A DNA stretch of 64,000 nucleotides from IMG/VR virus record IMGVR_UViG_3300027806_000003, positions 1-64,000 of that record. One strand, written 5' to 3'. Each line of letters starts with the position of its first letter. The stretch's first letter is position 1. The position numbers were made by a program, and so were the translations under genes. Positions 3,249 to 43,782 of this stretch are shown here, one piece after another. A model generated the notes under the pieces. It saw nothing but the letters and a program-made list of their open reading frames with translations, was not told the origin of the DNA and searched no databases. This DNA is from a virus.

Positions 3249-3740
3249 CTACATCGCCGTCGCACGAAGGTGCCTATGGCGATGCAGTTTCCGCCGGCAC
3301 ACCCGAAGCCATCGGTCTAGGTTCGTCGCGGCCCACCATGCGACGCGCACGGCCCGCTTTGCCTGCACGATGCACCCGCACCCCGGAACCTTCGGGGCTC
3401 TCACCGTGCTGATGCTGCCCTTGCTCCACAGCTCGAGGCGCTGCCACATCGGCGCGCCGTGAGTCTTCACGCGGATGTTCAGCCGCCCGATCGTGATCGG
3501 CGTGTGGACGATGCCCTTGGCATCCGGATGGCGGCCCTCGGGGCAAGGCAGGCCGTAGACCGTGTGCTCGTCCACCGTGTACCCCGACCGCGAGCACACG
3601 CCGGCATCGGCGTGCTCGCCGGTCTGCCGCATGTTCGGGCACGCCGCGCAGATGACCGCTCGCGTCACCGTCTGTCCGTCGCGCTTCGCGCCGTTGCGAC
3701 ACGCGATCGTGCCCTTTGTCTGTCCGCATCCGCAGGTCAT
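3249..3740 (-). CDS. Cys-rich small protein, last late gene (allele 1)
   Basis: ATGA-coupled to upstream gene; MTCGCG..CAAC..C..CPEGRH..GCGC; N-terminal part identical to 42461-42949. Confidence 0.75.
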   Translation of the reverse strand: MTCGCGQTKGTIACRNGAKRDGQTVTRAVICAACPNMRQTGEHADAGVCSRSGYTVDEHTVYGLPCPEGRHPDAKGIVHTPITIGRLNIRVKTHGAPMWQRLELWSKGSISTVRAPKVPGCGCIVQAKRAVRVAWWAATNLDRWLRVCRRKLHRHRHLRATAM

Positions 3741-4573
3741 GGAAGGTTCCCTCCTCCGCCGATAATGCCGCGGCACTCTGGCGTGTCGGTAAAGTACGCT
3801 TTGGGGTTCCTTCGGTCGCCAGAGCCTGGTGCGCTGAACTGCTTGAACCCAGAAGATTCGGCTTCGTCAAACTCGCCATTACCAAGATTGAGACGCTGAA
3901 GCCTGTAGTACGCGGAGCGTCGGCAGTCAAAGAACGCCCGAACGATGTCCACTTCGCACGCCCCGCACGCCAAGATGTCAGGCGGCGGGGGCTGCCTGCC
4001 AAAGCAAGAAAAGAACCCGCTGAATGGGCCGTTGGGGTATGGTTCGGAGGCGAAGCAGTTGAAGGGTTGCGGCGTTACTTGGCTCACCGTCGTGGTGGTG
4101 CCGCTAACCGGGTCTGTCCTGATGCGAGTTAGCGTGGCGGAGCCCGACCATTCACAGCAGTCTCCGGGGGTCGCGTTAGGCCGCTGCGACCACGTGACAT
4201 TGCTCTCGAAGATTTGCTCTTCAACCGTCTCGCCGCCGGCTCGAACGGATCGACTCTTGAAGGTCCATCGCATCCGCGCGGTCATGCCTGCAATCTGGCA
4301 CTCGTCGGTCGGAATAAGGTATGTGCCAGGCGGCGCGTTTGGGTCGATCGGATTCGGATCGTCGATCATCCTGCACAGAAATGGACAGCAACAATTCGCA
4401 CACACCGCGTTTGTGCCAACATCGGCACATCGGGCTATCTGTTCTCCCTGCGGCTGAAATGGAAGCGGACAACCTGTGCCATACTCCGGACCTCGGGGTG
4501 CCGACGGGTCGAACCACGGCGGCGGGCCGCCCGGCCCCCACGGCGGCTCGCCATTCCACCCATCACCGCAGCA
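3513..4573 (+). repeat. 1061-bp direct repeat, copy 1
   Basis: Matches 42722-43782 at offset 39209; ORF translations in several frames are identical. Confidence 0.95.
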
Positions 4574-4654
4574 CTCCTCGGCGCACGCGGCGGTGGCCCC
4601 GCGTCCGCCCTTCCGCCCGCCCTTGCCGTTGATCCGCAGCATCTTCTGGGCCAT
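3737..4654 (-). CDS. Cys-rich putative tail-end protein (phage A N-terminus)
   Basis: 305 aa, 19 Cys (CC, CCC, CxxC); directly downstream of tail genes. Confidence 0.75.
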   Translation of the reverse strand: MAQKMLRINGKGGRKGGRGATAACAEECCGDGWNGEPPWGPGGPPPWFDPSAPRGPEYGTGCPLPFQPQGEQIARCADVGTNAVCANCCCPFLCRMIDDPNPIDPNAPPGTYLIPTDECQIAGMTARMRWTFKSRSVRAGGETVEEQIFESNVTWSQRPNATPGDCCEWSGSATLTRIRTDPVSGTTTTVSQVTPQPFNCFASEPYPNGPFSGFFSCFGRQPPPPDILACGACEVDIVRAFFDCRRSAYYRLQRLNLGNGEFDEAESSGFKQFSAPGSGDRRNPKAYFTDTPECRGIIGGGGNLP

Positions 4655-5128
4655 TCACACACCTCCCTCGCCGCCCGCACTCACGCAGTCATCGGGCGCG
4701 ATCTGCTCACGGAGAATCCACAGCCGCGCCACCGGCTCCCCCTCGCTGTCGACCTCGCGCACCACAAAGCACAGATCGCCAACGACCGACGGATGAATCA
4801 CCCAGTCATCTCCGCGGCTCGGCCGCCCGTAGTACGGCGTCATGTTCGCCTGCTCGAATCTCTCGCCCAGCGCCGTGACCGTGTACGTCACGCTCCCGGC
4901 CGCCGTCGGCGTGTTGTGGCTGGCGGTCGTGATGCGGCATGGGATCACCATCCGCGCCAGCAGCAGCGCAAAGGCGTGCAGCGCATCGGCGGGCCTTCCG
5001 GCAACGCCCTGCTCGCGCACCTGCGCGATCGCCGCGCCCAGCGCGTTGAAGACTTCGGCGGTGATCGGATCACGCCGCTGCACAGTCGGGATCGCCGGCA
5101 GCGGCGTCTGGTTCGGCTGCGTGCTCAT
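4655..5128 (-). CDS. Putative tail tip protein
   Basis: ATGA-coupled start MSTQPNQ; C-terminal RITTAS..PT..GSVTYTV..P.YG.P..I.P.VVG is similar to the C-terminus of 43863-45089. Confidence 0.65.
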   Translation of the reverse strand: MSTQPNQTPLPAIPTVQRRDPITAEVFNALGAAIAQVREQGVAGRPADALHAFALLLARMVIPCRITTASHNTPTAAGSVTYTVTALGERFEQANMTPYYGRPSRGDDWVIHPSVVGDLCFVVREVDSEGEPVARLWILREQIAPDDCVSAGGEGGV

Positions 5129-5910
5129 GGGAACAGCACCCCCGCGTCCCAGGAGATCTCGGGGTAGATCTTGGCGCTGACAAGCCCCACGCTCCAGTCC
5201 AGCACCCCGCTGCTGTTCTCCGGTGCCCAGCGCACCAGGTGATCCTCGGCCGCCACAAACTCCAGCACGAACCGCAGCACGCCGTCGACAACCTCCGGGG
5301 CTCGAATGCCCCGGAACCGCAGTTTGCCCGCGTTGTAGTTCTGCTTGCCGCTGATGCCATAGGGCCGCGGCACCGCGATCGTGTTGGCGTTGACGCTGTC
5401 CAGGTAACTCAGGATCGTGTTGTTGTTCGTCGCGTACCAGCTCGGCGAGCGGAAGACCGTCACGCGGATGATCCTGCGGCTGATCTCCCGGGGCACGCCC
5501 TGCCCGTTGGCCAGGGGCCTCGCGCTGGTCGGCGCTCCGGTATCGGGCCGCCAGGGCTGGTAGATGATCACGCTGTCCTTCTCGACATCCTCCTCGCAGA
5601 AGGCCGTGTTGGCGATCGCCCGCCGCCGCGCCGCCCCGATCGTCGGCGGCGCAAAGTCGCAGGTCACTTCCCACTGGCGATTGGGCGACACGCCGCCGAT
5701 GTACTGCGGGTCCATGCTCTGCAGCAGGCTCAGCGCACCCGCGCCAGCGCTGAAGGCGTCGAACATCGCCGGCATACCCGTCGCCGCGTAGACCGCATCG
5801 AGATCATCGGCCCCGAGCACGCGGTAGATCTTCCGCCCAACATACCCGTCGGTGGTGCGCCGCAGCGACGGCGCCTTGCCCGTAGCCGTGATCAGTTCCG
5901 CCGTCGCCAT
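5125..5910 (-). CDS. Putative distal tail protein
   Basis: First gene after tape measure; positional and weak sequence similarity to 45089-45922 (VN...G.L.F.G). Confidence 0.6.
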   Translation of the reverse strand: MATAELITATGKAPSLRRTTDGYVGRKIYRVLGADDLDAVYAATGMPAMFDAFSAGAGALSLLQSMDPQYIGGVSPNRQWEVTCDFAPPTIGAARRRAIANTAFCEEDVEKDSVIIYQPWRPDTGAPTSARPLANGQGVPREISRRIIRVTVFRSPSWYATNNNTILSYLDSVNANTIAVPRPYGISGKQNYNAGKLRFRGIRAPEVVDGVLRFVLEFVAAEDHLVRWAPENSSGVLDWSVGLVSAKIYPEISWDAGVLFP

Positions 5911-5946
5911 GGTCGCTTCCTTTCACCTTCGCAGCTTCTTCCCGGT

Positions 5947-6043
5947 CCTCCACCGGTTCCCACCGGGGCAGGTGCGGCGTCTTCGCCGCGGAGGGGGCGC
6001 ATTCATTTGGCCATTTGACCACTTGCCCATTTGCCCATTTGCC
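5947..6043 (+). repeat. Family-2 palindromic element followed by CCATTTG(A/C) octamer array
   Basis: CCTCC..GGGG(C/G)AGGTG..CGGAGGGGGCG then ~5 octamers; other family-2 copies at 11553, 13986, 18906, 22548, 39115, 40738. Confidence 0.85.
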
Positions 6044-6055
6044 GCGTCTTCGCGG

Positions 6056-7474
6056 CTACCCAAACACCGCCCCCCCGTCCCTGGCCGCGATCTTCTCCAG
6101 CAGCACCACGGCCCGCTGCACACCCGCCGCGGTCTGCTGCGTACTCGTGGCCGTCGCCTGAGCAAAGGCCATCGCGGGCGACACACCAAAGACCTGGGCC
6201 GCCAGCCCCGCGTTGATCGCCCCGCCCGCCAGCGTGCGGGCCTGGGTGAAACTGCTCGGCTCGGGCCTGCTCGCCTCGGCGGCAAAGCGTCCGCGCAGGG
6301 CCTCGTTGGCGATCAGCGCCCGCGTCCGCTCGCTCTCGCTCAGGCTGGTGTTCTTGAGGATCTCCGCCCGCCGCTGCTCAAACTCCAGCGCCGTGGCCGC
6401 CAGGTCCGCGTCCTTCTGCCGCCCCTGCAATCGCAGGAGTTCGATGCGGTACTGCTCCTCCTGCAGCCGGATCGCCTCGGCGGCCGCGTCCTGCTCCTGC
6501 TGCCTGGTCATGTTCATGCGGGCCTGCGTGGCCTCGTAGGCGGCCTGGGCCTGGTCGATGAGCTCCTGCCGCGCGATCGGGTCGGCCACGTCCATCGCCG
6601 CGGCGCGGGCCTGCAGGAACGCGGCCTGGGATGAGAAGAACTCCGCCTCGCGGTCATCGCCCCGGCTCTGGGCCAGCGCCGCGCGGCTCTGGGCGATGGC
6701 GATCTGGGTCTTCTCGATTTCCTTCTCCGCCGCCAGCCTGCTCTCGCTCTCGGTCTTCATCGCCTTGGCCGCGGCCTCGGCGGTGCGCTTCTGCTCCTCG
6801 AGCAACGCGATGGCCGCCTCGCGGCCCCGCAACTCCGCCCGCGCCGCATCATCGAGCCCCTTGTCCTGGGCGATCGCCTGCTGCCTCCGCATCAGGTCAA
6901 GCTGAGAGGCCAGCGCCGCGGCGGTATCCTCGTCGCCGCGGGCGCGTGCCTCGCGGATCTTCTGCTCAAGGGCCAGCTCTTCCTTGCGGGCCTCAATGCG
7001 CAGCCGATCGGCCCTTGCCTCAAGCGACTGAATCGTGCTCCGTACAATGCCGCTGGGATCGCCCTCGTCGCCGACCAACCCTAATCCGATCTGCACAGTC
7101 GTCTGCACGGCGCGTTCATACACACGATTGAGATAGTCCAGGAACCCGGCCGCTGCACCGCCTGCAATCGCGTAGCTCCTGGCCAGATCACCGCCGATGT
7201 TCCGGCTGAGCCTGCTGCTTGCTGCGGACAGCTGATCGACCTTGGGCAGCAACTCCGCATACTGCTCCTGATACTGCCGGGTCATCCTGATCGCCACGGC
7301 CGTCATCGCCGCAAGAGTGCCCACGCCACCGCCGGCAACACCGAACGCGCGACCGGCCATGATCCACGACTGATTCAGCGTGCGTGCGGACATCTCGCCG
7401 GTCGTCTGCACGCGCCGCAGCCCGCGCACGACATCCGCATCGTCCATCGTCGCCACAATCCGCACATCGCTCAT
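6056..7474 (-). CDS. Tape measure protein (short)
   Basis: 472 aa, Ala/Glu/Arg-rich helical; N-terminal DVRIVATMDD; position after tail chaperones. Confidence 0.7.
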   Translation of the reverse strand: MSDVRIVATMDDADVVRGLRRVQTTGEMSARTLNQSWIMAGRAFGVAGGGVGTLAAMTAVAIRMTRQYQEQYAELLPKVDQLSAASSRLSRNIGGDLARSYAIAGGAAAGFLDYLNRVYERAVQTTVQIGLGLVGDEGDPSGIVRSTIQSLEARADRLRIEARKEELALEQKIREARARGDEDTAAALASQLDLMRRQQAIAQDKGLDDAARAELRGREAAIALLEEQKRTAEAAAKAMKTESESRLAAEKEIEKTQIAIAQSRAALAQSRGDDREAEFFSSQAAFLQARAAAMDVADPIARQELIDQAQAAYEATQARMNMTRQQEQDAAAEAIRLQEEQYRIELLRLQGRQKDADLAATALEFEQRRAEILKNTSLSESERTRALIANEALRGRFAAEASRPEPSSFTQARTLAGGAINAGLAAQVFGVSPAMAFAQATATSTQQTAAGVQRAVVLLEKIAARDGGAVFG

Positions 7475-8253
7475 CGTGGTGCTCCCGCGTTCATGCTTGC
7501 CAAGATCGCCTTGCGTCCGGTGGTGATCCCCAGTTGCCGCAGCAGCGCCGCGGCCTTCTGCGCCAGCCGTTTCTTGAACTCCACGATCCGCGCGTGGGGC
7601 TCGCGGTTGGACACCATGATCGTGCTCCGCTCCGGGGTGTGCTCGGCTCTGCCGACTCCGCCGTAGACCTTGGCCCGCACCGTCGTCAGCCTCGGCCTGC
7701 CGCTCCTGGTGCGCGTCTTGCCGAAGATCAGCACCCCCTGCCCGCCGCTGGCCATGTACAGATCAAGCTCGGTCCGGCTCCGCCGGTGCCGATCGTCCGC
7801 GTCCTCTTCCCACTTGCGCAGTTTGGTCAGCCGCGTCCGCAGTTCCCGCAGCCGCAGTTGCATCGCGCTCGACCGCCGCCCCTGGGCGATCGTCGCCTCG
7901 GCCGACCGCAAACTCCGCTCGGTCTTGTCCACGGCCATGCGCGCCACCTGCAGTTCCTTCCACCGCTCGACAACCTGCACCGCCAGCCGATCGGCCCACT
8001 GCTCGGCAAAGCGGCTCTTGCGCACCTCCGGCACGGGAAACGGGCCGATGCCCGCCTGGTTGCCCGCCATCGCCCACGCGCGGCTGTACCGCATCGTGTC
8101 GCGCGGGCTCACGGCCAGCACCGCCCGCATCGCCGTGCGGAAACTCATCCGCATCGCTTCCACACGCGCGCCGGGGATCCTCCGCCGCGCAAACTCGATC
8201 CGCTCCTTCAGCGGCCGCACGTTCACGCGTACAACCATCGCCCCGGTGCTCAT
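7471..8253 (-). CDS. Putative neck/tail-completion (HK97 gp10-like) protein with coiled-coil insert
   Basis: Basic protein; SPRDT..YSRAW and VSNREPHARIVEF motifs; same position as 47953-48525. Confidence 0.5.
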   Translation of the reverse strand: MSTGAMVVRVNVRPLKERIEFARRRIPGARVEAMRMSFRTAMRAVLAVSPRDTMRYSRAWAMAGNQAGIGPFPVPEVRKSRFAEQWADRLAVQVVERWKELQVARMAVDKTERSLRSAEATIAQGRRSSAMQLRLRELRTRLTKLRKWEEDADDRHRRSRTELDLYMASGGQGVLIFGKTRTRSGRPRLTTVRAKVYGGVGRAEHTPERSTIMVSNREPHARIVEFKKRLAQKAAALLRQLGITTGRKAILASMNAGAPR

Positions 8254-8504
8254 GGCCTGCCCGCTTCCTGCGTCATGCGCACAAGTTCAAAGGCCACAAG
8301 CTGCTCGCGCAGCCCCGGCTCAAAGGCGTCGATCTCCCTCGGGTCGATCGCAAATCGCTCGCACACCCGCAGGTGCATGTACAGCCCGGTGTACGCCAGG
8401 CCCGCATCGGCCTTGCCGACAAGGCCCAGGAGCCGTTCATCGTCGGCCTCCGCCGCGGTCGGTCGTTGCCTCTGCTCGCCGCGGCCCGAGCGGATCAGTT
8501 TCCC
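8250..8504 (-). CDS. Tail assembly chaperone -1 frameshift extension (gpT-like)
   Basis: Slippery G GGA AAC (8504-8498) just before the gpG stop; -1 frame open (KLIRSG..HLRVCERFAIDPREID..EQLVAFEL) to a TGA overlapping the next ATG. Confidence 0.8.
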   Translation of the reverse strand, partial: GKLIRSGRGEQRQRPTAAEADDERLLGLVGKADAGLAYTGLYMHLRVCERFAIDPREIDAFEPGLREQLVAFELVRMTQEAGRP

Positions 8505-9166
8505 ACCAGCCCCAGCTGCTGCTCCCTGCCCAGCGCCGCGCCGCTGGTGTCCTCAAGGGCCGCTCGCAGGTGCCGCAGCAGCCTGTGCGTCGCGGCCCGG
8601 GCCGCCTCCTGCGGGCTTGAGGCGTGCTCCTGGGCCGCATCGCGGCAGATCGCCTCGGCCGCCTGAGCCAAAGGCGATTGGCCCGCGGCAAAGAGCGGGT
8701 CATCGAGCATTTGGCCGATGATCGCCGCCGCCGCGGCCCGGTCCCTGGCCTTGCGCGCACCCAGCGTCGTCGGCCCGGCCTCGAGCCCGACCAGCCGCAC
8801 AAACGCGTCCTGCAGTTCCTGGGCCGTGACCAGTCCGAGCAACCTCTCGGCCAGCTCGCCAAGGGCCTCGGGGCTGTCGCCGGTGGCCCACGGCTTGCCG
8901 CCGTTGACCTGCGCGTCGCACATCTTCCCCGCCACGGCCACCCGCGCGGCCATGAGCGTCAGGTTGTGGTCGGCGCGGCTTCTGGACGGCCCGGCCGCCC
9001 CGGCCCCGGCGCCCTTGCGGACCGCCGCCGCGTCGTAGATCGCCCCCACGGCGTTCTCGACCGCCGCCACATCGCGGGCGCTCAGCCCGCTGAGCACCAC
9101 CGAGCACCCGCCGATCGGCACCGCCTCGCTGGCCATCGCCCGCGCAAATCCCGCCAAACTGAACAT
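8495..9166 (-). CDS. Tail assembly chaperone (gpG-like)
   Basis: Follows tail tube gene; AAAGGA RBS; ends at slippery site GGA AAC TGA. Confidence 0.75.
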   Translation of the reverse strand: MFSLAGFARAMASEAVPIGGCSVVLSGLSARDVAAVENAVGAIYDAAAVRKGAGAGAAGPSRSRADHNLTLMAARVAVAGKMCDAQVNGGKPWATGDSPEALGELAERLLGLVTAQELQDAFVRLVGLEAGPTTLGARKARDRAAAAAIIGQMLDDPLFAAGQSPLAQAAEAICRDAAQEHASSPQEAARAATHRLLRHLRAALEDTSGAALGREQQLGLVGN

Positions 9167-9184
9167 CGCGCCCATTCCTTTCCG

Positions 9185-9231
9185 CTTTGCCCTTTGCTGC
9201 TTTGCTGCTTTGCCCTTTGCCCTTTGCCCTT
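9185..9231 (+). repeat. CTTTGCC/CTTTGCTG 7-8-mer tandem array
   Basis: Seen directly, intergenic. Confidence 0.85.
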
Positions 9232-9243
9232 CCCACCCCCCCC

Positions 9244-9738
9244 TTACGCCGTCGCGTCCCAAGCGTCCTCGATCGCGGGCATGTTCTTGCACCGGATCGT
9301 CAGCGTCCAGGTGTCGTGGCTGTCGGTAGAGCTGCTCAGCACCGCGTTGGTCACGCGCGAGCGTGCGAAGGTCTGCGTCACGCCCGAGGTTGCGCCGAAG
9401 TACGCCAAGCGCGTGATGCGGAGGTCCACCTCCGAGCGCAGGCCCGCGGCGGTGTGGGCCGGGCGCAGGGCCGCCACGGCGTTGTCGGTCCCGCTGAAGG
9501 TGCCCGTGGTGACCTTGATCACCAGCGTCAGCTCCCCTTCCTGCTGGCCGAGCACGTAGGTGCTGCCAAGCACGCCGTACTGCTCATCGGTGTACTCGCG
9601 CGGGCCGGGCTCGGTGATCTGCAGGCTCTGCGGCACCACGCCGAGGATCTCCTCGAACGTGCCCGAGCCCGCGGGCTTGATCTCGACCTTGCCGCCGGAG
9701 TTAAAGTGCGTGTTGTTGCCCGAGTTCTTGGCCGCCAT
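9244..9738 (-). CDS. Major tail tube protein (putative)
   Basis: 164 aa, beta-rich, upstream of frameshifting chaperone; GGAG RBS. Confidence 0.65.
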   Translation of the reverse strand: MAAKNSGNNTHFNSGGKVEIKPAGSGTFEEILGVVPQSLQITEPGPREYTDEQYGVLGSTYVLGQQEGELTLVIKVTTGTFSGTDNAVAALRPAHTAAGLRSEVDLRITRLAYFGATSGVTQTFARSRVTNAVLSSSTDSHDTWTLTIRCKNMPAIEDAWDATA

Positions 9739-9749
9739 GGTTCATGCTC

Positions 9750-9838
9750 CTTTGTTTGCTGCTCTGCCCTTTGCTGCTCTGCCCTTTGCTGCTCTGGCCT
9801 TTGCCGATTTGCTGCTTTGCCCTTTGCTGCTTTGGCCT
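9750..9838 (+). repeat. TTTGCTGC/TCTGCCC tandem array (~11 units)
   Basis: Seen directly, fills the intergenic space. Confidence 0.85.
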
Positions 9839-9848
9839 CTCGGCCCGC

Positions 9849-10427: not shown

Positions 10428-10445
10428 CGCGTGCGTCCTTTGCTT

Positions 10446-10835: not shown

Positions 10836-10852
10836 GCGCGACTCCTTCCCAC

Positions 10853-10891
10853 GCCACTGCGCCACTCTGCCACTGCGCCACTCCGCCACTT
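10853..10891 (+). repeat. GCCACT(GC/CT/CC) octamer array
   Basis: 5 units; also at 11623-11661, 14101-14136, 38673-38704. Confidence 0.85.
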
Positions 10892-10898
10892 CCCCGCG

Positions 10899-11528: not shown

Positions 11529-11670
11529 GGTCGCTCCGTTTCTGTTTTCGCTCCTCCCCCTGTTCCTACCGGGGGAGGTGCGGCGTCTTCGCCGCGGAGG
11601 GGGTGCCTCCGCCTTTGCCTCTGCCACTCCGCCACTGCGCCACTCTGCCACTGTGCCACTTCCCGCCCCG

Positions 11671-35774: not shown

Positions 35775-35827
35775 GCTCCCTTGACTTTGCTGCTTTGCCC
35801 TTTGCTGCTTTGCCCTTTTCTCAGCGT

Positions 35828-36418: not shown

Positions 36419-36532
36419 TGCATTTCCTTTCGTGCCTCCGGCGGCTCTTGAACTCACGCCGCCCGCACACACCTTGCAAATCCCGCCGCCGGGTGTCCCC
36501 GGCGGCAGGCATCCGTGGAGAGAGAGAATGCC

Positions 36533-37471
36533 TTACGCCTCGAACGACCAGGCCTGAACGTTGCTCTTCATCGGCAGCGCCTCGAACACGCCGACGCTCT
36601 TGATGCCGCCATCGCCCTCACGGCCAGCGGCGATTTCCTTGAGCGTTCGGCGAACAACGCCCGCCAGCCAGCCCACCGCTTCCGCCTCGGCCCGCTCGAC
36701 CTGCCCGGCCTTGGCCCGCAGCAGCAGCGGCTTGTCCGCCAGAGCGTCAACATCCAGCGTGGCGCCGACGCGCTGCATGTGCGGAACCTCATCGATCAGC
36801 ACGTTGTCCCACACCGCCGCATCGATGACCACGTCCTCGGGCAGCTTGTCGGTGCCGGTCACTTCGGCCACGATGTCAACATCCACCTTGCTGGCACCCT
36901 GGCTGATCTTGCTGGTGCCCGTGGTGTTGCTGACGCTCTTCAGATCGCTGATAAGCTCGACCAAGTTGGCCGGCTCGTAGCGGGCCTGCATGTCGGTCTT
37001 CAGCAGCGTGCGCAGCTCCCGCTGGCCCGTCCGCTGGCTCTGCCGCAGGGCCCGCACGCGATGCCAAGTCTGCGAAATCGCCAGATCCATCCGCACGCCG
37101 TCGCCGTAGGCGATCGCTTCTTCATCTCGGTAAGCCTCGATCGCACCGAGGCTCACCAGCACAATGGGCTTGTACGGGCTGTCACCGCCGCCGCAGATCC
37201 GGTCGAGCATCGCGCACAGCGCGTCAACCGTCAGCGCCACCAACCGCACCGGCGGCTCAAGCGGCGACACCACCAGCCCCTCAACCTCCTCGCTGGTCAG
37301 CGCCCGTCCCGCGGCCCGGTCATAAACGATCTTGGTCCCGTTGGCCTTGTCGACATCGCTCACCGTCAGGCCCAGGTTCGCGCCCTTGCTCTCGGCCCAC
37401 TTGAGCACCTCGATCTGCCCACCACCGCCACCACCACCACCCGCCGTACCGCCATTCTTCTCACTGCTCAT
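36533..37471 (-). CDS. DUF2303/YfdQ-like phage protein
   Basis: AAGGA RBS; W....Q..Q..L...LVELISDL..KLPE..I..AVW pattern; paired with upstream small gene. Confidence 0.6.
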   Translation of the reverse strand: MSSEKNGGTAGGGGGGGGQIEVLKWAESKGANLGLTVSDVDKANGTKIVYDRAAGRALTSEEVEGLVVSPLEPPVRLVALTVDALCAMLDRICGGGDSPYKPIVLVSLGAIEAYRDEEAIAYGDGVRMDLAISQTWHRVRALRQSQRTGQRELRTLLKTDMQARYEPANLVELISDLKSVSNTTGTSKISQGASKVDVDIVAEVTGTDKLPEDVVIDAAVWDNVLIDEVPHMQRVGATLDVDALADKPLLLRAKAGQVERAEAEAVGWLAGVVRRTLKEIAAGREGDGGIKSVGVFEALPMKSNVQAWSFEA

Positions 37472-37554
37472 TGCATGTTCCTTGTCTTCACCGCCACACG
37501 TTGCACATCCACCATGCCGCACCCTTGCTCAGAACCAGCCGCGACGATCGCGGC

Positions 37555-37947
37555 TTACTCGCTCTGATCCTCAAGACCGCCGAAGGTCGCCTGCGCCACG
37601 TTGTCAGGATCGCCGCCGATCACGCCGGCAAACAACCGCTCACCGGTGGCCCGATCAACCGTCTCGGTGATCATGCACTCGTGGCCCTCGGTCTGCTGCG
37701 GCGGAACCACCGATCGGATCGCCACGTTGATCGTCGCCGTCGGCGCGGATTCCCCGGAGCCCTCATCGTCGCCGTGGCTCTTGGGGGTCACGCTCATCAC
37801 GATCGTCAACTTCCGCGCCGCGTTCACGCCGGGCCGCTTGGCCACATCGCGGAGCACCGTCCCGAGTTCCTTGTTGAAGATCTTGCCCACCAGCCCCTTC
37901 TTGAGCTTGCCGACCGCCCCCAGATCCAAGACCGCTCGCTGCGCCAT
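37555..37947 (-). CDS. YfdP-like partner of DUF2303
   Basis: GAAAGGA RBS; L..G....FN.EL..V..DV..RP....ARKLTI...VTP. Confidence 0.6.
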   Translation of the reverse strand: MAQRAVLDLGAVGKLKKGLVGKIFNKELGTVLRDVAKRPGVNAARKLTIVMSVTPKSHGDDEGSGESAPTATINVAIRSVVPPQQTEGHECMITETVDRATGERLFAGVIGGDPDNVAQATFGGLEDQSE

Positions 37948-38039
37948 GCGTATTCCTTTCTGCACCCGACCATGTTGCACACGCCCCTTTGCGCAGCGGA
38001 GTGCAACACACACTCCGCCGCGCGCCGGTGGCGACACCA

Positions 38040-38666
38040 TTACAAACCCTTCCGCCCCCCGGCCCCAGCCGCGCCCCCCGCCGTTTGCCCCATCCCCGTC
38101 GCCCGCTGCTGCATCTCACTGGCCAGCAGCATCAGCCGCCCCGCCTGGTCGGCCAGGGCCTGCGCCTCGTCCTTACTAATGACCGTGTCCTGCGCCGCGG
38201 CGTTCAGCCGCTCGGCCAGCATGCCGACCGAGGCCATCACGCCCAGCATCATGCGGTCAAGGCTCTGCGCCGCCGCGTCGGCCTCGCTCTCGGCCACCAG
38301 CGCGAATCCCCACTCCTCGCCCAGCCGCGACACCAGCCACGCCCGCGCGTCATCCGGCAGGTGCGGGATCAGCTTGAACAGCTGGAACCAGGGCACATGC
38401 CGATCCGCCTTGCTCGGCGAGAGCCAGGCCACGATCGTCTCGTACGAGATCCCGAGCCGATTGGCCAGGAACCGCCGCGTCACACCCAGCTCCTCGCACC
38501 GATGCACCGCCCCGCGGAAGAGCTCCTCCGCCCGCGCCCCCACCGGATCACGCACGAGATCCTCCTTGATCTCACCGTCTGCTCGCCGCAGGTCTGGCCG
38601 CCGCCCGTCCAGAAGTTTCCCGCGTTGTTGGCTTGTTATGTCCATGGACCCACGCAATCCTTCCAT
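38040..38666 (-). CDS. Phage regulatory protein, 186 CII-like
   Basis: LANRLGISYETI..WLSP....H; C-terminal G.L......AAQD.VISKDE. Confidence 0.6.
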   Translation of the reverse strand: MEGLRGSMDITSQQRGKLLDGRRPDLRRADGEIKEDLVRDPVGARAEELFRGAVHRCEELGVTRRFLANRLGISYETIVAWLSPSKADRHVPWFQLFKLIPHLPDDARAWLVSRLGEEWGFALVAESEADAAAQSLDRMMLGVMASVGMLAERLNAAAQDTVISKDEAQALADQAGRLMLLASEMQQRATGMGQTAGGAAGAGGRKGL

Positions 38667-38777
38667 CACTGTGCCACTGCGCCACTCCGCCACTGCACCA
38701 CTGCCCGCATCACTTCCCAACCAAACCCGCGTGCCGGGGCGCCAGCCCCGGCCGCGAGCGCACCAGCGCGGCCTCGC

Positions 38778-39860
38778 TCACACGCCCACCGTGTTTGCCT
38801 GCTCCGCACCGCCAACACCGCCAGCCGTTCCCCCAGCCGCCCCCCCGCCCCCGCCCGCCGCCACCACCGCCTCCAGCTCCGCCAAGCGCGACACCAGCGC
38901 CGCCACATCCGCCGCCAGCGCCCTGGCCGCCGCGGCGTCGATCCCCGCCCCCCGCTCAGCGCTCACGCTGATCCGAGCCAGCACCCGCTGCGCATGCCCC
39001 CTTGCCGCCACCACCGCCTTCTCAGCCGCCGCGAACATCGGCACCAGACTCAGCTGCACCGCCGCCGGCTGCACCACCCCCGCGGCCATCGGCCCCCGGC
39101 CATCGGTCTTTGATCCTCCCACGTTTCCTAACGGGGGAGGTGGCGAGTCCTCGAGCCGGATGGGGTCCCCGCCTTCGCCTTCGGCCCCGAAGGGGCCGCG
39201 GCCTGCCCCCCCAATAGCCACGTGTGCAACCCGTGGAAACGTCTGCACGCTCGCTCCTGCCCCGGCAGGGGCAGAGGAGAGCCCCGCCAATCCACCCCCA
39301 GCATTTCCCCTCGGAGTTGGACCAATCGGTCCAACTTCAAGGGTTCTCCCCGGCCCGCCGATGGCACCGACGATGATCTCGGCCTCGTGCGTGCTCAGCC
39401 GGCCTTCGTCGGCGTTGCGGCTGATCCGCGCCGCCATCGTGGCGTGTCCCGCCTGGGCCAGCCGCTTGGCCGCGTCCTTGGCCGCCGCCCGCACCGCCTG
39501 CTCGTTCATGTCCCCGTCGCGGCCAAAGGCCTCGCCCAGCGCGATCGCCCGGCTGACCAGCTTGGCGTGGAGCTGGCTCTCTCGCTGCCACTGCCCCCAG
39601 GCCCCGTGCCTGCCGCGTGCCATGAGCTGCTGCCGCACCGCGATCAGGTACGCCCCAAGCTGCACCCGCGCCCGCAGCAGATCCTTCTTCTTCACCGCCA
39701 CCAGGCTGGCCAGGCTCCCCGCCCGCGCGATACTCGCCCCCCAGGTCACCTCGAGCGTGGCCCCGTCCACCGTCGGCACCACCAGCGGCGCGTACACGCC
39801 AGCGCCAGCCCCAACGGCAACACCAGCCGCCGCCCCCGACTCAATCCGCAGTGCGGTCAT
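38778..39860 (-). CDS. DUF3102-like protein with repeat-derived insert
   Basis: QLGAYLIAVRQQL..RHGAWGQW; both repeat families in-frame at 39084-39278. Confidence 0.55.
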   Translation of the reverse strand: MTALRIESGAAAGVAVGAGAGVYAPLVVPTVDGATLEVTWGASIARAGSLASLVAVKKKDLLRARVQLGAYLIAVRQQLMARGRHGAWGQWQRESQLHAKLVSRAIALGEAFGRDGDMNEQAVRAAAKDAAKRLAQAGHATMAARISRNADEGRLSTHEAEIIVGAIGGPGRTLEVGPIGPTPRGNAGGGLAGLSSAPAGAGASVQTFPRVAHVAIGGAGRGPFGAEGEGGDPIRLEDSPPPPLGNVGGSKTDGRGPMAAGVVQPAAVQLSLVPMFAAAEKAVVAARGHAQRVLARISVSAERGAGIDAAAARALAADVAALVSRLAELEAVVAAGGGGGAAGGTAGGVGGAEQANTVGV

Positions 39861-39939
39861 GGCTCACCCCCGTCATCGGCCCCGGGCTCAATCACCACGC
39901 CCGCTCCTTCCCACTTCCTCTTGCTCTTGCTCTTGCTCC

Positions 39940-40614
39940 TCACGCCGCACCCCCATCCTGCCGCCCGGCCTGCCCCTCTTCCCTCCGCTCCCCTTCCCTT
40001 CGCGTCTTCGCGTCTTCGTGCGCCCGCCCCCGCGCCTTCTCCTCCGCCTCCATCTCGCGTATGAACTCCGCGTGCTCGGCCCCCAGCAGCCTGGCCATCA
40101 GCCCGATCGGCGTGCCGTCCAGGTCCGCCAGCCCGGCGACGATCTCCAGCCCGTGATAGCACAGGGTCTGCGTCACGGTCCCGCCCCCGGCGGTGCCCTC
40201 GCTCCACTTGCACAGCCCGTCTCGTTTGCTGGCCCAGGTCATGGCCACCGCGTGGTAGAGCCCGCTGGCGTCGATCGGCATGCCGATGCTGCGTGCCCGC
40301 TGGGCGACCTGAACCCAGTCCACCTGGTCAACATCCGCCCGTCCGCAGTGCACCAGCGTCTCGGTGATCAGCCCCGCGGCCACGGCCCGCGCCGTGATCT
40401 GGTGGGCCTCGCAGATCAGTTCCCGCCCCCGCCGCCGCGCCTCGGCGATCGACCACACATCGGCGGTCACCGCATCGGGCAGGCGGTACACCATCTGCCC
40501 CACCGGCGGCCTCGGTGCCCGCCCGAACTCGCCAACCGGCTCGAGCCCCATCGCCGCGGCCTCGGCCCCCAGCGCCGGCAGCCGGCCCTTCTCATCTCGC
40601 TGCACGCTGATCAC
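39940..40614 (-). CDS. Hypothetical protein
   Basis: GTGA-coupled start; early operon. Confidence 0.5.
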   Translation of the reverse strand: MISVQRDEKGRLPALGAEAAAMGLEPVGEFGRAPRPPVGQMVYRLPDAVTADVWSIAEARRRGRELICEAHQITARAVAAGLITETLVHCGRADVDQVDWVQVAQRARSIGMPIDASGLYHAVAMTWASKRDGLCKWSEGTAGGGTVTQTLCYHGLEIVAGLADLDGTPIGLMARLLGAEHAEFIREMEAEEKARGRAHEDAKTRREGERREEGQAGRQDGGAA

Positions 40615-40949
40615 AGGCCACCCCCAGCGTTCTGGCCCTCGGCCATCGGGATGCGGCCCCCGGACCCAACGGGGCCGCGGGATGTCGCCACGGGTGAAGC
40701 GCAGCGCAACCCGTGGACAGCCTTCGCCCCCACAGATCCTTCCCCGCCCACCGTCAGATTGGCCAACCGGGGAGGTGCCGAGTCCCAAGTGTCATTTGGG
40801 AGGCGGAGGGGGCGAGCCGCTCGCGCCACCGGCCTGACCACCGCCGCCACCAGCCTTCGGATCGCGGCATCACTGGCCTCGGCCTCAACGAACACAAGCC
40901 GCATCGCTGCGGCTGGTGGTGTCGGTACAACGGGTCTGGTCTTGTTCAC
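40611..40949 (-). CDS. First early ORF, largely repeat-derived C-terminus
   Basis: GGAG + GTG; contains family-1 and family-2 elements. Confidence 0.35.
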   Translation of the reverse strand: MNKTRPVVPTPPAAAMRLVFVEAEASDAAIRRLVAAVVRPVARAARPLRLPNDTWDSAPPRLANLTVGGEGSVGAKAVHGLRCASPVATSRGPVGSGGRIPMAEGQNAGGGL

Positions 40950-41093
40950 GCGCGTGCTCCACTGCCCTCTCGGGCCTTGTCGGGTCGGCGGCCATCCACG
41001 GTCGCCGTGCCCCTAAAACCCGCGGCGAGCGTTGAAACTCGCCGAGGGCTGGATGGCTTTCGTGGGCCTTGAACCCCACGCACGCACGGGAGG

Positions 41094-41195
41094 ATTGTGC
41101 CATGCGTAGGGCATATGTCAAACACAAGTGTCAAAGAAGTCTATAAATCCCCGGTTTGGGGCGTTTGTTGACATTGCCACCACACACGGAAGACT
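41094..41195. promoter_or_regulatory. Divergent promoters of the immunity switch
   Basis: Minus: TTGACA(41121-16)-16nt-CACAAT with TG extension, second TTGACA at 41134-29; plus: TTGACA(41168-73)-16nt-AAGACT 5 nt before repressor ATG (leaderless-like); AT-rich. Confidence 0.7.
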
Positions 41196-41200
41196 CATGC

Positions 41201-41794
41201 ATGAACCCGGTCGCAGAACTTCGCCGGGGGCGGGGTCTGACGCAGAGTGAACTCGCCGCCGCGGCGGGCGTGCATCTTCGCACCGTCTGGCGAATGGAGC
41301 ATGACAGAGGCTCGGCAACACTTCCGAGCGTCACCGCCGTAGTGATCGCGCTGCACGACTCCTCCGGAGTTTCTGAGGATGAACTGTTTTCTGTTGCCCG
41401 CCACTTTGGGCTTCCGCCGGCCCCGATACTGGCTCGCCTTGGAGTTCAATCGGTGCGATCAGGAACGGCGCCGGCAAGCGTTGCGGACACCGATCGGCTC
41501 ATCGCAAAGCTGCGCGTTGCCATCGCGGAGCTCGGCGTAGCAGCCGTCGAACAGCACCTCAATGACGTTCTCATGGCGGCTTTTGCCAAAAACTCGCCGC
41601 CGCCCGCGACCGCCGTTGGTGCCACTTCCGATGAGCATGTCATGACCGTCGCATCGAACCCCCGCAAGAGCCCGCTCGGCCCGAACATCCTGGAGCAGGA
41701 GTTTCGCCACTACTCGCCAGCCCCTCCACCAGCCGCGCCCACCGAGCCTCAGCAGTCCCCGTCCAAGCCCGCCCCCAAACGCCGACCCGGATAA
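41201..41794 (+). CDS. XRE-family HTH repressor
   Basis: VAELRRGRGLTQSELAAAAGVHLRTVWRMEH; divergent from early operon; no S24 domain evident. Confidence 0.85.
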   Translation: MNPVAELRRGRGLTQSELAAAAGVHLRTVWRMEHDRGSATLPSVTAVVIALHDSSGVSEDELFSVARHFGLPPAPILARLGVQSVRSGTAPASVADTDRLIAKLRVAIAELGVAAVEQHLNDVLMAAFAKNSPPPATAVGATSDEHVMTVASNPRKSPLGPNILEQEFRHYSPAPPPAAPTEPQQSPSKPAPKRRPG

Positions 41795-41797
41795 CTC

Positions 41798-41897
41798 TTC
41801 GGCCCCGAAGGGGCCGAGGTATGTAGCCACGGGTGGAGCGCAGCGCAACCCGTGGACAGCCTTCCCCTTCATTCCTGCCCCGGCAGGGGCAGAGGAG
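41798..41897 (+). repeat. Family-1 REP-like element after repressor
   Basis: Full three-hairpin copy. Confidence 0.85.
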
Positions 41898-41990
41898 TCT
41901 CGGAGCCACGATCCCGCCCGCCCGCACGCGACCATCGCCGCTCTCTTTGCTTTGCCGCTTCACCGCGATCATCATCAAAGGCCCTCCCTC

Positions 41991-42431
41991 ATGCCCAGGT
42001 ATCACATCCACACCGTCATCGACGGCCGCCGCAAGATCGCCAAGCTCGATGCACCCTCCGAGGCCGCCGCCCGCGATCAGGCCACCCGCGCGGGCCTGAT
42101 CATCAACGCCATCGAGCTCGCTCCCGAGCCGCCCCAGCCCGCCAGCCAGCCCGCGCCGGAACCGCTCATCACGCCCGCCTCGGCGCCTCCGCACGATGCT
42201 GCCATCGCCGATCTCCTCGCCCGCATCCACGCGGATCTTGTCGTGCTCAAGGCCCACACAGCTTTCCTCGAGCCCATCGCCCGGTGCGAACTTCTCCGGC
42301 GTCCAAACTTCACGCTCATCGCCACCGTCTGCCTGGGCATCTTCTTCGGCGTGGTCTTCCTGCTGGTCGTGGCGTTCTTCGTGCTCCTGTTCTTTAACCA
42401 GGTCGGTCGTTTCACCCGCACCGGCGGCTGA
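41991..42431 (+). CDS. Membrane protein (moron) with PilC/GspF-N-terminus-like domain
   Basis: MPRYHIHTVIDGRRKIAKLDAPSEAAARDQATRAGL; Pro linker; C-terminal TM; co-oriented with repressor. Confidence 0.75.
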   Translation: MPRYHIHTVIDGRRKIAKLDAPSEAAARDQATRAGLIINAIELAPEPPQPASQPAPEPLITPASAPPHDAAIADLLARIHADLVVLKAHTAFLEPIARCELLRRPNFTLIATVCLGIFFGVVFLLVVAFFVLLFFNQVGRFTRTGG

Positions 42432-42460
42432 CACCCACCCGCCGACCGCACCAACCACCC

Positions 42461-42949
42461 TTATTTGACCATTTGACCATTTGACCATTTGGCTCTTCGC
42501 CTCCGCCCCACCCTCCACCACCGGTCCAGGTTCGTCACCGCCCACAGCGTGACCCTGACCGCTCGCTTGAGCGGAATCACGCATCCGCACCCGGGCACCT
42601 TCGGCGCCAGCGGCGTGCTGATCTTGCCCTGGCTCCAAAGCTCCAGCCGTTGCCACATCGGCGATCCCCGCGTCCGCACACGCACGCTCACACGCCCGAT
42701 CGTGATCGGCGTGCTGACCACGCCCTTGGCATCCGGATGGCGGCCCTCGGGGCAAGGCAGGCCGTAGACCGTGTGCTCGTCCACCGTGTACCCCGACCGC
42801 GAGCACACGCCGGCATCGGCGTGCTCGCCGGTCTGCCGCATGTTCGGGCACGCCGCGCAGATGACCGCTCGCGTCACCGTCTGTCCGTCGCGCTTCGCGC
42901 CGTTGCGACACGCGATCGTGCCCTTTGTCTGTCCGCATCCGCAGGTCAT
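42461..42949 (-). CDS. Cys-rich small protein, last late gene (allele 2)
   Basis: Paralog of 3249-3740 with diverged C-terminal half; ends in CCATTTGA array typical of phage A. Confidence 0.75.
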   Translation of the reverse strand: MTCGCGQTKGTIACRNGAKRDGQTVTRAVICAACPNMRQTGEHADAGVCSRSGYTVDEHTVYGLPCPEGRHPDAKGVVSTPITIGRVSVRVRTRGSPMWQRLELWSQGKISTPLAPKVPGCGCVIPLKRAVRVTLWAVTNLDRWWRVGRRRRAKWSNGQMVK

Positions 42950-43782
42950 GGAAGGTTCCCTCCTCCGCCGATAATGCCGCGGCACTCTGGCGTGTCGGTA
43001 AAGTACGCTTTGGGGTTCCTTCGGTCGCCAGAGCCTGGTGCGCTGAACTGCTTGAACCCAGAAGATTCGGCTTCGTCAAACTCGCCATTACCAAGATTGA
43101 GACGCTGAAGCCTGTAGTACGCGGAGCGTCGGCAGTCAAAGAACGCCCGAACGATGTCCACTTCGCACGCCCCGCACGCCAAGATGTCAGGCGGCGGGGG
43201 CTGCCTGCCAAAGCAAGAAAAGAACCCGCTGAATGGGCCGTTGGGGTATGGTTCGGAGGCGAAGCAGTTGAAGGGTTGCGGCGTTACTTGGCTCACCGTC
43301 GTGGTGGTGCCGCTAACCGGGTCTGTCCTGATGCGAGTTAGCGTGGCGGAGCCCGACCATTCACAGCAGTCTCCGGGGGTCGCGTTAGGCCGCTGCGACC
43401 ACGTGACATTGCTCTCGAAGATTTGCTCTTCAACCGTCTCGCCGCCGGCTCGAACGGATCGACTCTTGAAGGTCCATCGCATCCGCGCGGTCATGCCTGC
43501 AATCTGGCACTCGTCGGTCGGAATAAGGTATGTGCCAGGCGGCGCGTTTGGGTCGATCGGATTCGGATCGTCGATCATCCTGCACAGAAATGGACAGCAA
43601 CAATTCGCACACACCGCGTTTGTGCCAACATCGGCACATCGGGCTATCTGTTCTCCCTGCGGCTGAAATGGAAGCGGACAACCTGTGCCATACTCCGGAC
43701 CTCGGGGTGCCGACGGGTCGAACCACGGCGGCGGGCCGCCCGGCCCCCACGGCGGCTCGCCATTCCACCCATCACCGCAGCA
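42722..43782 (+). repeat. 1061-bp direct repeat, copy 2
   Basis: Matches 3513-4573. Confidence 0.95.

What the first reader, a model, noticed from the sequence alone, without database searches (positions are those of the whole stretch)
3513..43782. A complete phage nested in another prophage via a 1061-bp shared repeat, with its own attP unused
Seen: direct repeats 3513-4573 and 42722-43782 bracket a full 39,209-bp genome whose tRNA-Asn core is internal with phage genes on both sides. Looping it out restores intact gene pairs for both phages: 43866 continues into the 3249 allele, and 4654 into the 42461 allele, which carries phage A's signature octamers. Inference: phage A entered prophage B by single-crossover homologous recombination, bypassing its integrase and leaving hybrid tail-end gene combinations. 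An assembler joining an excised or circular phage A through the repeat would give the same picture.
Basis: partly seen in the sequence, partly recalled or inferred. Interest (0 to 1): 0.8.

Follow-up and report, generated by a model that had tools for sequence, protein, structure and literature searches.

The report
Two phages joined through shared repeat
Two unrelated, complete ~40-kb temperate phages of Phycisphaerales (Planctomycetota) bacteria share an identical 1,061-bp tail-tip cassette and are written as one 79-kb sequence. The join is more likely the assembler's path through that shared stretch than a phage truly nested inside a prophage, though this cannot be settled without reads.

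Summary
**Observation confirmed.** 3513-4573 equals 42722-43782 base for base (1,061 bp), bracketing a complete 39,209-bp phage A whose tRNA-Asn attP lies intact inside it.

**Context.** The window is part of a 79,354-bp IMG/VR record.
- The rest is a second complete phage, B (40,101 bp). No host DNA is present.
- The record's 44-bp terminal repeat is exactly B's own att core, a tRNA-Gly(CCC) 3' half.

**Loop-out holds.**
- A's closure occurs in an independent A-like phage that has no B.
- B's closure is inferred from two short Logan contigs of B-like relatives.
- The shared stretch is a swappable, fibre-like Cys-rich cassette behind lineage-specific N-termini. A second cassette type is likewise shared by both lineages.

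**The join is not shown to be physical.**
- 39,322-bp contigs in other assemblies (GenBank-derived) equal, to the base, B alone closed through its att core and stopping 141 nt inside the repeat at both ends.
- A 59,380-bp contig cannot hold A between two B genes it carries.
- Composite contigs (79,354 and 98,848 bp) pass the repeat twice. I expect a path-resolving assembler to give this either way.

**Verdict.** About 0.6 two separate replicons joined in silico; about 0.3 real homologous-recombination cointegrate. Known kind, modest interest.

The parts
3513..4573 (.). Repeat R, copy 1 (1,061 bp, exact). GC 0.633, lower than A (0.691) and B (0.670).
42722..43782 (.). Repeat R, copy 2 (identical to copy 1)
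3291..3512 (.). B-side continuation of the homology, about 75% identical to 42500-42721. It is the 3' part of the small Cys-rich gene, B allele.
42500..42721 (.). A-side continuation of the homology: the 3' part of the small Cys-rich gene, A allele. Its protein C-terminus is identical to that of the independent A-like phage.
3737..4654 (-). Fibre-like Cys/Pro-rich gene, 305 aa. It has an A-type N-terminus (about 28 aa, in A-unique DNA) plus the shared cassette. No Pfam or PHROG hit.
42946..43866 (-). Fibre-like gene, 306 aa. It has a B-type N-terminus plus the same cassette.
3249..3740 (-). Small Cys-rich gene, B allele (163 aa from the ATG). The N-terminal 76 aa lie in R.
42461..42949 (-). 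Small Cys-rich gene, A allele (162 aa). It ends in an octamer array.
4574..42721 (.). Phage A unique DNA (38,148 bp). Genes, minus strand unless marked:
- major head protein 15310-16344
- protease-like 17170-18825
- portal 19022-20731
- TerL 22697-24976
- primase 28265-31102
- integrase 31336-32715 (+)
- methyltransferase 33302-35146
31189..31236 (+). A's attP core: the 3' part of tRNA-Asn(GTT). It is intact, with primase on one side and integrase on the other.
31336..32715 (+). A's integrase: a divergent tyrosine recombinase (PHROG 1, E 7.6e-13; no Pfam hit).
43783..64000 (.). Phage B, late region within the window, all on the minus strand:
- tail genes 43863-45089 and 45089-45922
- tape measure 45926-47956
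- head-protease 52345-54672
- 710-aa ORF 56315-58447 (portal by position only)
- TerL 59167-61263

B continues to 79,310 of the record, with ParB-methyltransferase, DnaC-like, ParB-like and Sak4-like genes, and an integrase at record 78164-79216.
45..3512 (.). Phage B, the arm between its att core and R. It holds plus-strand accessory genes 233-811, 825-1475 (bPH_2 domain), 1505-2344, 2495-2926 and 2923-3204.
1..44 (+). B's att core, which is also the record's terminal repeat (identical to record 79311-79354). It runs from the tRNA-Gly(CCC) anticodon loop to the 3' end plus TT. Exact identity to host tRNA genes starts at base 1 of the record.
42462..42491 (+). Octamer array (CATTTGNC repeated). 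Sister arrays lie at 6004-6041, 18995-19024 and 23990-24019, with a single match at 13910-13923. All are in A and none in B.

Best explanation
A and B are two separate temperate phages of the same Phycisphaerales (Planctomycetota) host group.
- **A:** 39.2 kb, attP in tRNA-Asn.
- **B:** 40.1 kb, attP in tRNA-Gly(CCC).

They are unrelated at DNA level apart from a tail-tip cassette, exchanged recently by homologous recombination.
- It comprises the distal about 277 residues of a fibre-like Cys-rich protein plus the first 76 residues (counted from the ATG) of the next small Cys-rich protein.
- In each phage the cassette sits behind that phage's own N-terminal segment of about 28 residues.

Because the 1,061 bp are identical, the two genomes share one edge in an assembly graph.
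- A then forms a loop on that edge.
- A path-resolving assembler writes the only walk that uses every edge: B1-R-A-R-B2.
- That walk looks like A nested in B.
- The record stops at B's att core at both ends. That is what a de Bruijn graph gives when excised and integrated B are both present.

**Shown:** the repeat, the two complete genomes, both att cores, the modular cassette, natural A-to-A closure, and other assemblies breaking at the repeat edges with B closed on itself.

**Inferred:** that the join in this record is only a graph path, and that the cassette determines host recognition.
For: **1. The two units are complete and unrelated.**
- Each unit has its own TerL, portal, head, tail, replication genes and integrase.
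- They share no other DNA.
- The long IMG/VR contigs carrying distant relatives of either terminase are mostly 34-46 kb, two being longer (66-77 kb).

**2. There is no host DNA in the record.**
- The 44-bp terminal repeat is B's tRNA-Gly att core.
- Its first base is the first base of exact identity to host tRNA-Gly genes.

**3. A occurs without B.**
- An independent MAG (G001) holds an A-like phage at 93-99% identity.
- Its attP is intact (C64).
- A's right flank runs through its own fibre gene into A's left flank on one contig (L004).
- That MAG has no B DNA.

**4. B occurs closed on itself in other assemblies.**
- Contigs of 39,322 bp, seen in at least five GenBank-derived assemblies, carry three truncated or shortened B proteins:
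  - the B fibre cut at 75 aa;
  - the B-allele small protein cut to its last 134 aa;
  - B's tape measure.
- Predicted length for B-unique DNA, closed through one att core, plus 141 nt of R at each end, is 39,322 exactly.
- The predicted truncations of 75, 134 and (for A) 74 aa all match.
- So unitig-type assemblies break at both edges of R, and B is excised there.

**5. B occurs on contigs that cannot hold A.**
- B's gene 825-1475 and B's TerL share a longest contig of 59,380 bp.
- The order through A needs at least 60,439 bp.
- Logan contigs of 5,388 and 4,756 bp carry B2-side tail gene, fibre, small protein and B1-side genes together.

**6. Cassette sharing between the two lineages is recurrent.**
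- Two N-terminal types combine with at least three cassette types.
- Cassette 3 also occurs with both N-types.
- A polymorphism (E212/D212) occurs on both backgrounds.

**7. Literature.**
- De Bruijn assemblers break at multi-path positions.
- Repeats in mosaic phages give fragmented or chimeric contigs (PMC10914622, PMC10563150).
Against: - **Composite seen twice.** It appears on this record and on a 98,848-bp JGI contig. That contig carries exact copies of both fibre versions, A's TerL and B's genes, with about 19.5 kb extra that looks like host flank.
- **A never seen integrated.** A was not found integrated at tRNA-Asn in any data I could reach. Nesting in B would explain its persistence in cellular metagenomes.
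- **Recombination at R is real.** The shared alleles and swapped cassettes show it happens in nature, so cointegrates must exist at least transiently.
- **Assembler behaviour is from memory.** I could not see reads, coverage or the assembler used. My account of how SPAdes-type tools traverse a simple loop is recollection, not a test.
Confidence: 0.6

Rival explanations
1. The composite is a real molecule. A circular phage A recombined once with B inside the shared 1,061 bp. The recombination used RecA or a phage recombinase; B encodes a Sak4-like annealing protein and a RusA-like resolvase. This gave a Campbell-type cointegrate: A nested in prophage B at tRNA-Gly, or a 79-kb excised circle. 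A's integrase and attP were not used. Recombination between the two R copies releases A again.
For: - The topology is exactly that of a single crossover: direct repeats flank one unit, the genes at both junctions are hybrid but intact, and attP is internal.
- The composite was assembled on two contigs, one apparently with host flanks (98,848 bp).
- Exchange at R between the lineages is recurrent.
- Recombinase genes are present in B.
- A was not found integrated at tRNA-Asn anywhere.
Against: - The same graph and contig arise if A is a separate circle, so the contig itself carries no weight.
- Both R copies are identical to the base, as they must be if one graph edge was walked twice.
- B without A, and an A-like phage without B, both exist.
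- In at least five assemblies B is excised and contigs end at R.
- A 79-kb circle would be about twice the size of the long contigs carrying relatives of either terminase (mostly 34-46 kb), so I doubt it could be packaged (inference).
- A 1-kb direct repeat is unstable.
Confidence: 0.3
2. Both states coexist. A and B replicate as separate circles in co-infected or induced cells, and interconvert with a minority of cointegrates through R. The contig then shows a real but minor species.
For: - Alleles and cassettes are shared on both backgrounds.
- The record ends on B's att core, which implies that excised and integrated B were both present in the sample (inference from graph logic).
- B carries recombination genes.
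Against: - There is no quantitative information.
- This reading is indistinguishable from the other two without read data.
Confidence: 0.08
3. The 79-kb circle is the genome of a single phage that carries two full sets of structural genes.
For: IMG/VR classes the record as complete with direct terminal repeats.
Against: - The terminal repeat is a tRNA-Gly att core, not a packaging repeat.
- The record has two terminases, two head systems, two integrases and two att sites.
- The two halves differ in GC and in repeat content.
- An A-like phage and B each occur alone.
Confidence: 0.02

Closest known systems
Campbell-type insertion of a phage into a resident prophage by general (homologous) recombination. 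The classical case is lambda int-minus phages forming double lysogens; this is my own knowledge, not tested here. The route is also discussed for tandem mycobacterial prophages in PMC9934374.
   Same: - One unit is bracketed by direct repeats of the shared homology.
- attP is left intact.
- Loop-out restores both parental genomes.
   Different: - Here the physical existence of the join is not shown.
- The two phages are otherwise unrelated and share only a 1-kb tail-tip cassette.
- The host is a planctomycete.
Prophages integrating into prophages (Nakamura et al. 2021, PMC8112680)
   Same: One complete phage is written inside another.
   Different: - There, integration is integrase-mediated at short attB sequences carried by the outer prophage, so the inner phage is flanked by its own attL and attR.
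- Here A's attP is unused and the flanks are 1,061 bp of homology.
Mosaic exchange between temperate phages and prophages by relaxed homologous recombination (PMC3945230; recombinant mycobacteriophages, PMC10700106)
   Same: - An identical module sits in otherwise dissimilar phages, with breakpoints inside genes.
- Phage recombinase genes are present (a Sak4-like gene in B).
   Different: - Those are double-crossover products.
- The present record would be the single-crossover intermediate, if it is real.
Assembly joins or breaks at regions shared between genomes, in de Bruijn graph metagenome assemblies (COBRA, PMC10914622; Phables, PMC10563150)
   Same: - The shared edge is identical to the base.
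- Other assemblies break exactly k nt inside it.
- The unit genomes are recoverable on either side.
   Different: Those papers mostly describe fragmentation. Here the assembler appears to have walked the shared edge twice, producing a double-length 'complete' record.
Tail-fibre or receptor-binding-protein cassette swapping, with a conserved N-terminal anchor and a variable distal part
   Same: - The gene lies downstream of the tape measure and distal tail genes.
- The N-terminus is lineage-specific, followed by a conserved junction motif and hypervariable distal parts. The two A-lineage fibres are only 42% identical overall.
   Different: - There is no sequence or fold match to any known fibre or RBP family.
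- The protein is unusually rich in Cys and Pro.

Membership tests
Campbell-type cointegrate by homologous recombination | The inserted unit is flanked by direct repeats of the sequence shared by both parents | tested here: met
   3513-4573 equals 42722-43782, 1,061 bp at 100%
Campbell-type cointegrate by homologous recombination | Recombining the two repeats restores two parental genomes that exist in nature | tested here: met
   - **A closure:** seen on L004.
- **B closure:** inferred from contigs of 5,388 and 4,756 bp and the 59,380-bp bound.
Campbell-type cointegrate by homologous recombination | Single DNA molecules span each repeat copy with the recombinant flanks, and A and B have equal copy number | not testable with these tools
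Prophage-in-prophage by site-specific integration (PMC8112680) | The inner phage is flanked by attL and attR derived from its own attP | tested here: not met
   A's tRNA-Asn core is single, internal and next to its integrase, with primase on the other side.
Prophage-in-prophage (any mechanism) | The outer prophage is flanked by host chromosome | tested here: not met
   - The record holds no host DNA and ends on B's att core at both ends.
- Host flanks are only inferred for other contigs, from their lengths.
Assembly path through an inter-genome shared region | The two copies are identical to the base (one graph edge used twice) | tested here: met
Assembly path through an inter-genome shared region | Assemblies that do not resolve paths break at the edges of the shared region | tested here: met
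   - The 39,322-bp contigs equal B-unique DNA plus 141 nt of R at each end.
- Truncated proteins of 75, 134 and 74 aa match the prediction.
Assembly path through an inter-genome shared region | Each genome also occurs without the other | tested here: met
   - G001 holds an A-like phage and no B.
- The 59,380-bp contig holds B genes and cannot hold A between them.
Assembly path through an inter-genome shared region | The two units differ in read depth, or no reads span the recombinant junctions | not testable with these tools
   no read data
Temperate phage with tyrosine integrase and tRNA-derived attP | A tRNA 3' fragment identical to a host tRNA gene lies next to the integrase gene | tested here: met
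   - **A:** 31189-31236 matches tRNA-Asn(GTT).
- **B:** the 44-nt core matches tRNA-Gly(CCC) of Phycisphaerales.
- **Integrases:**
Tail fibre / receptor-binding protein | Sequence or fold homology to a known fibre or RBP family | tested here: not met
   No Pfam or PHROG hit. The Atlas search gave no usable hit.
Tail fibre / receptor-binding protein | A predicted structure comparable with known fibres | tested here: inconclusive
   The AlphaFold2 model has mean pLDDT 39 and is unusable.
Tail fibre / receptor-binding protein | Last genes of the tail module, with a modular N-terminal anchor and an exchangeable distal part | tested here: met
   - In B the gene order is tape measure, then two tail genes, then this gene.
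- Two N-terminal types combine with at least three cassette types.

The most novel reading that the evidence does not exclude
Phage A really lysogenises by homologous recombination into resident prophage B, through their shared host-recognition cassette. It would ride inside B at tRNA-Gly in Phycisphaerales, with its own integrase idle. The same cassette would then serve both as host-range determinant and as a portable 'attachment site' between two unrelated phages, which would explain why the two lineages keep identical cassettes in different environments.
Probability: 0.25. Interest if true: 0.6.

Novelty: new member of a known kind. Interest (0 to 1): 0.3.

Why it matters
**If it is an artefact**
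- A public virus record classed as complete, with direct terminal repeats and 100% estimated completeness, would be two genomes stitched through a shared module.
- Its 'terminal repeat' would be an att core.
- Databases and tools that trust terminal repeats would mis-size and mis-cluster such records.

**If it is real**
- It would be a natural example of integrase-independent lysogeny by recombination into another prophage.
- The host phylum is Planctomycetota; I know of no temperate phages characterised for it (my own knowledge, not checked here).

**Either way**
- The data identify two temperate phages of Phycisphaerales, their tRNA integration sites, and a family of Cys-rich tail-tip cassettes that matches no known family.
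- The two unrelated lineages exchange those cassettes repeatedly.

Tried and rejected

I could therefore not fetch the 98,848-, 59,380-, 39,322- or 39,212-bp contigs. Their content is inferred from exact-protein look-ups and length arithmetic.
- Near-identical records seem to be withheld from the collection scans.
  - The repeat protein found nothing in viral or metagenome contigs.
  - B's 408-aa protein found nothing in genome or viral contigs.
- Five Phycisphaerales MAGs hold only distant B-like patches.
- The earlier-findings look-up of relatives was empty.

**Function of the cassette proteins**
- No Pfam or PHROG hit.
- No Atlas hit.
- The AlphaFold2 model built on 7 sequences had pLDDT 39, so it was not searched.

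**Readings considered and dropped**
- I first read contigs of about 39.21 kb as circular A genomes. 'A-unique plus one R' has the same length, so they say nothing about closure.
- I first took P0031 and P0063 as sequence variants on the 98,848-bp contig. They differ from the window's proteins only by V versus M at a GTG start. That contig therefore carries the same B, and may or may not come from the same sample as this record.
- The 'NCBI nr' and 'gem' source flags are inconsistent between adjacent genes, so I did not build on them.
- The 44-bp terminal repeat as a k-mer overlap of a circular assembly was rejected. It coincides base for base with the tRNA identity block.


Full report
**1. 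The observation**

- At an offset of 39,209 bases every position of 3513-4573 equals 42722-43782 (1,061 bp).
- Leftwards the two copies stay homologous at about 75% for about 220 bp more (3291-3512 vs 42500-42721). Rightwards identity stops abruptly.
- The only other long self-match is a 61-bp exact repeat inside A, plus a family of short repeats confined to A.

**2. What the window belongs to**

- The window is bases 1-64,000 of a 79,354-bp IMG/VR record. The record is classed as having direct terminal repeats, with CheckV completeness 100%.
- The terminal repeat is 44 bp, so the circle is 79,310 bp. It divides as follows:

| Part | Length (bp) | GC |
|---|---|---|
| A-unique | 38,148 | 0.691 |
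| B-unique | 39,040 | 0.670 |
| R (two copies) | 1,061 each | 0.633 |

- A carries a major head protein, protease-like protein, portal, TerL, primase, a tyrosine integrase and a methyltransferase.
- B carries its own tape measure, head-protease fusion, TerL, ParB-methyltransferase, DnaC-like, ParB-like, Sak4-like and RusA-like genes, and an integrase.
- No host genes were seen.
- The long IMG/VR contigs carrying distant relatives of either terminase are mostly 34-46 kb, two being longer (66-77 kb).
- The record is therefore two complete temperate phage genomes in one circle.

**3. The att sites**

*Phage A*
- 31189-31236 is the 3' part of a tRNA-Asn(GTT). It lies between primase and integrase.
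- It matches genuine tRNA-Asn genes of Actinoplanes and of two Phycisphaerales MAGs.
- A's attP is therefore intact.

*Phage B*
- The record's 44-bp terminal repeat is itself a tRNA fragment: the anticodon loop of tRNA-Gly(CCC) through the 3' end plus TT. It lies just upstream of B's integrase.
- The 42-nt core is exact in 91 loci, nearly all Phycisphaerales or Phycisphaerae MAGs.
- Exact identity to those tRNA genes begins at the very first base of the record. The base before it is C in hosts and A in the phage.

*Host*
- Two Phycisphaerales MAGs carry both cores (L139/L099 and L141/L109).
- The second of these, G003, is flagged unpublished, so that part of the host statement rests on an unpublished genome.

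*My inference from de Bruijn graph logic, not tested*
- A contig that starts and ends exactly on the block of identity between attP and the host site is what results when excised and integrated B are both present.
- It is not the signature of a packaged terminal repeat.

**4. What the repeat encodes**

- R holds the distal about 277 residues of a 305/306-aa Cys- and Pro-rich protein. The first about 28 residues differ between the copies: A-type at 4654, B-type at 43866.
- R also holds the first 76 residues of a small Cys-rich protein. Its C-terminus exists as a B allele (3249) and an A allele (42461).
- The genes follow the tape measure and two tail genes in B.
- No family or fold could be assigned.
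- Database homologues show two N-terminal types combined with at least three very different distal cassettes, behind a conserved junction motif.
- Cassette 3 also occurs with both N-types, and an E212/D212 polymorphism is found on both backgrounds.
- I read this as a swappable host-recognition cassette that the two lineages exchange repeatedly. Position and modularity are shown; the function is inferred.

**5. Does looping out restore natural genomes?**

*Phage A: yes, directly.*
- A 4,994-bp contig of a MAG binned as Gemmatimonas (L004) matches 6804 down to 4497 at 99.1%.
- It then carries a different 673-bp fibre segment, then matches 42969 down to 40949 at 87.5%.
- Its small protein has a C-terminus identical to the 42461 allele.
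- The same MAG holds the rest of an A-like phage at 93-99% identity, with attP and integrase uninterrupted, and no B DNA.
- The octamer arrays occur only in A, including at 42462-42491.

*Phage B: by inference.*
- Logan contigs of 5,388 and 4,756 bp each carry a B2-side tail protein, a B-type fibre, the small protein and B1-side proteins.
- B's gene 825-1475 and B's TerL share a longest contig of 59,380 bp. The order through A needs at least 60,439 bp.

**6. Is the join physical?**

The strongest new datum is arithmetic.
- Contigs of 39,322 bp, from at least five GenBank-derived assemblies, carry the B fibre cut at residue 75, the B-allele small protein cut to its last 134 residues, and B's tape measure.
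- B-unique DNA, closed through a single att core, plus 141 nt of R at each end, is exactly 39,322 bp.
- The predicted truncations (75 aa, 134 aa, and 74 aa for the A-type fibre, P0007) all match.
- So in k=141 unitig-type assemblies, contigs stop at both edges of R, and B is in its excised form while A-type flanks co-occur.

Composite contigs exist too.
- They are this record and a 98,848-bp JGI contig. That contig carries both fibre versions, A's TerL and the same B. The apparent TerL 'variant' is only V versus M at a GTG start.
- Length bookkeeping suggests B-only and composite prophages with about 19.2-19.5 kb of host flank. This is inference.

The graph for 'A nested in B' and for 'circular A plus B sharing R' is the same.
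- A walk that uses every edge is B1-R-A-R-B2 in both cases.
- My recollection is that SPAdes-type loop resolution produces that walk without spanning evidence. I did not test this.
- The literature confirms only that such assemblers break at, or mis-join across, shared regions (PMC10914622, PMC10563150).

**7. Weighing**

Nothing I could reach requires a physical cointegrate.
- An A-like phage occurs without B, and B occurs on contigs too short to hold A.
- In several assemblies B is excised while contigs stop at R, where A-type flanks co-occur. In that state two packageable 40-kb genomes are far more natural than a 79-kb circle.

Against this:
- recombination at R clearly happens;
- the composite was assembled twice;
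- A has not been seen integrated at its own site.

My odds are about 0.6 for separate replicons joined in silico, 0.3 for a real homologous-recombination cointegrate, and the rest for a mixture or other readings.

**8. Comparison with known systems**

- If real, this is Campbell-type insertion by general recombination into a resident prophage. That is known from lambda genetics (my own knowledge) and is discussed for mycobacterial tandem prophages (PMC9934374).
- It is not the integrase-mediated prophage-in-prophage of E. coli (PMC8112680), because A's attP is unused.
- The module exchange itself fits relaxed homologous recombination among temperate phages (PMC3945230, PMC10700106).
- I class it as a new member of a known kind, of modest interest.
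- It is also a useful warning: a 'complete, terminally repeated' virus record can be two genomes, with an att core as its repeat.

Noticed in passing
window 1-44 and record 79311-79354: The record's 'direct terminal repeat' is a tRNA-Gly(CCC) 3' half, i.e. prophage B's att core, not a packaging repeat. The completeness call based on terminal repeats is therefore misleading.
   Followed up: yes
window 21152-21212 and 32078-32138: - A 61-bp piece of A's integrase gene is copied exactly, on the same DNA strand, into the late region, where the genes run the other way.
- The A-like phage of MAG G001 has only the integrase copy; its late region differs there.
- The meaning is unknown. It could be a recombination scar or an assembly glitch.
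   Followed up: partly
window 6004-6041, 18995-19024, 23990-24019, 42462-42491 (also 13910-13923): - Tandem arrays of the octamer CATTTGNC sit at gene ends in phage A only (14 matches against 0.07 expected; none in B).
- At 42462 the array is translated as the C-terminal tail of the small Cys-rich protein.
- The function is unknown.
   Followed up: partly
L004 (JBEILM010000214.1) and G001 contigs C64, C268, C405, C429: - A near-identical A-like phage is binned in a 'Gemmatimonas' MAG.
- Its att core matches tRNA-Asn of Phycisphaerales and Actinoplanes. Within that MAG the core occurs only in the phage copy; the only Gemmatimonas-named match in the collection scan is that same contig.
- The phage contigs are probably mis-binned.
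   Followed up: partly
proteins P0136 (Logan, 4,756-bp contig) and L004:2151-3005: A second, very different fibre cassette is also shared between an A-type and a B-type N-terminus. The two unrelated phage lineages therefore carry matching cassettes in more than one environment.
   Followed up: partly
L043 (CP054186.1, Phycisphaeraceae chromosome), locus position about 357-398, minus strand: This is a copy of the tRNA-Gly core without the 5' half of the tRNA, i.e. an attR-like remnant. Several other Phycisphaerales contigs carry two core copies (for example L050, L062/L068, L075/L098). tRNA-Gly(CCC) therefore looks like a busy integration site in this order.
   Followed up: no
window 825-1475 (+): An accessory gene in B's arm next to the att core has a bacterial PH domain (bPH_2, E 3.7e-6). 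It is transcribed opposite to the late genes, which makes it a moron candidate.
   Followed up: no
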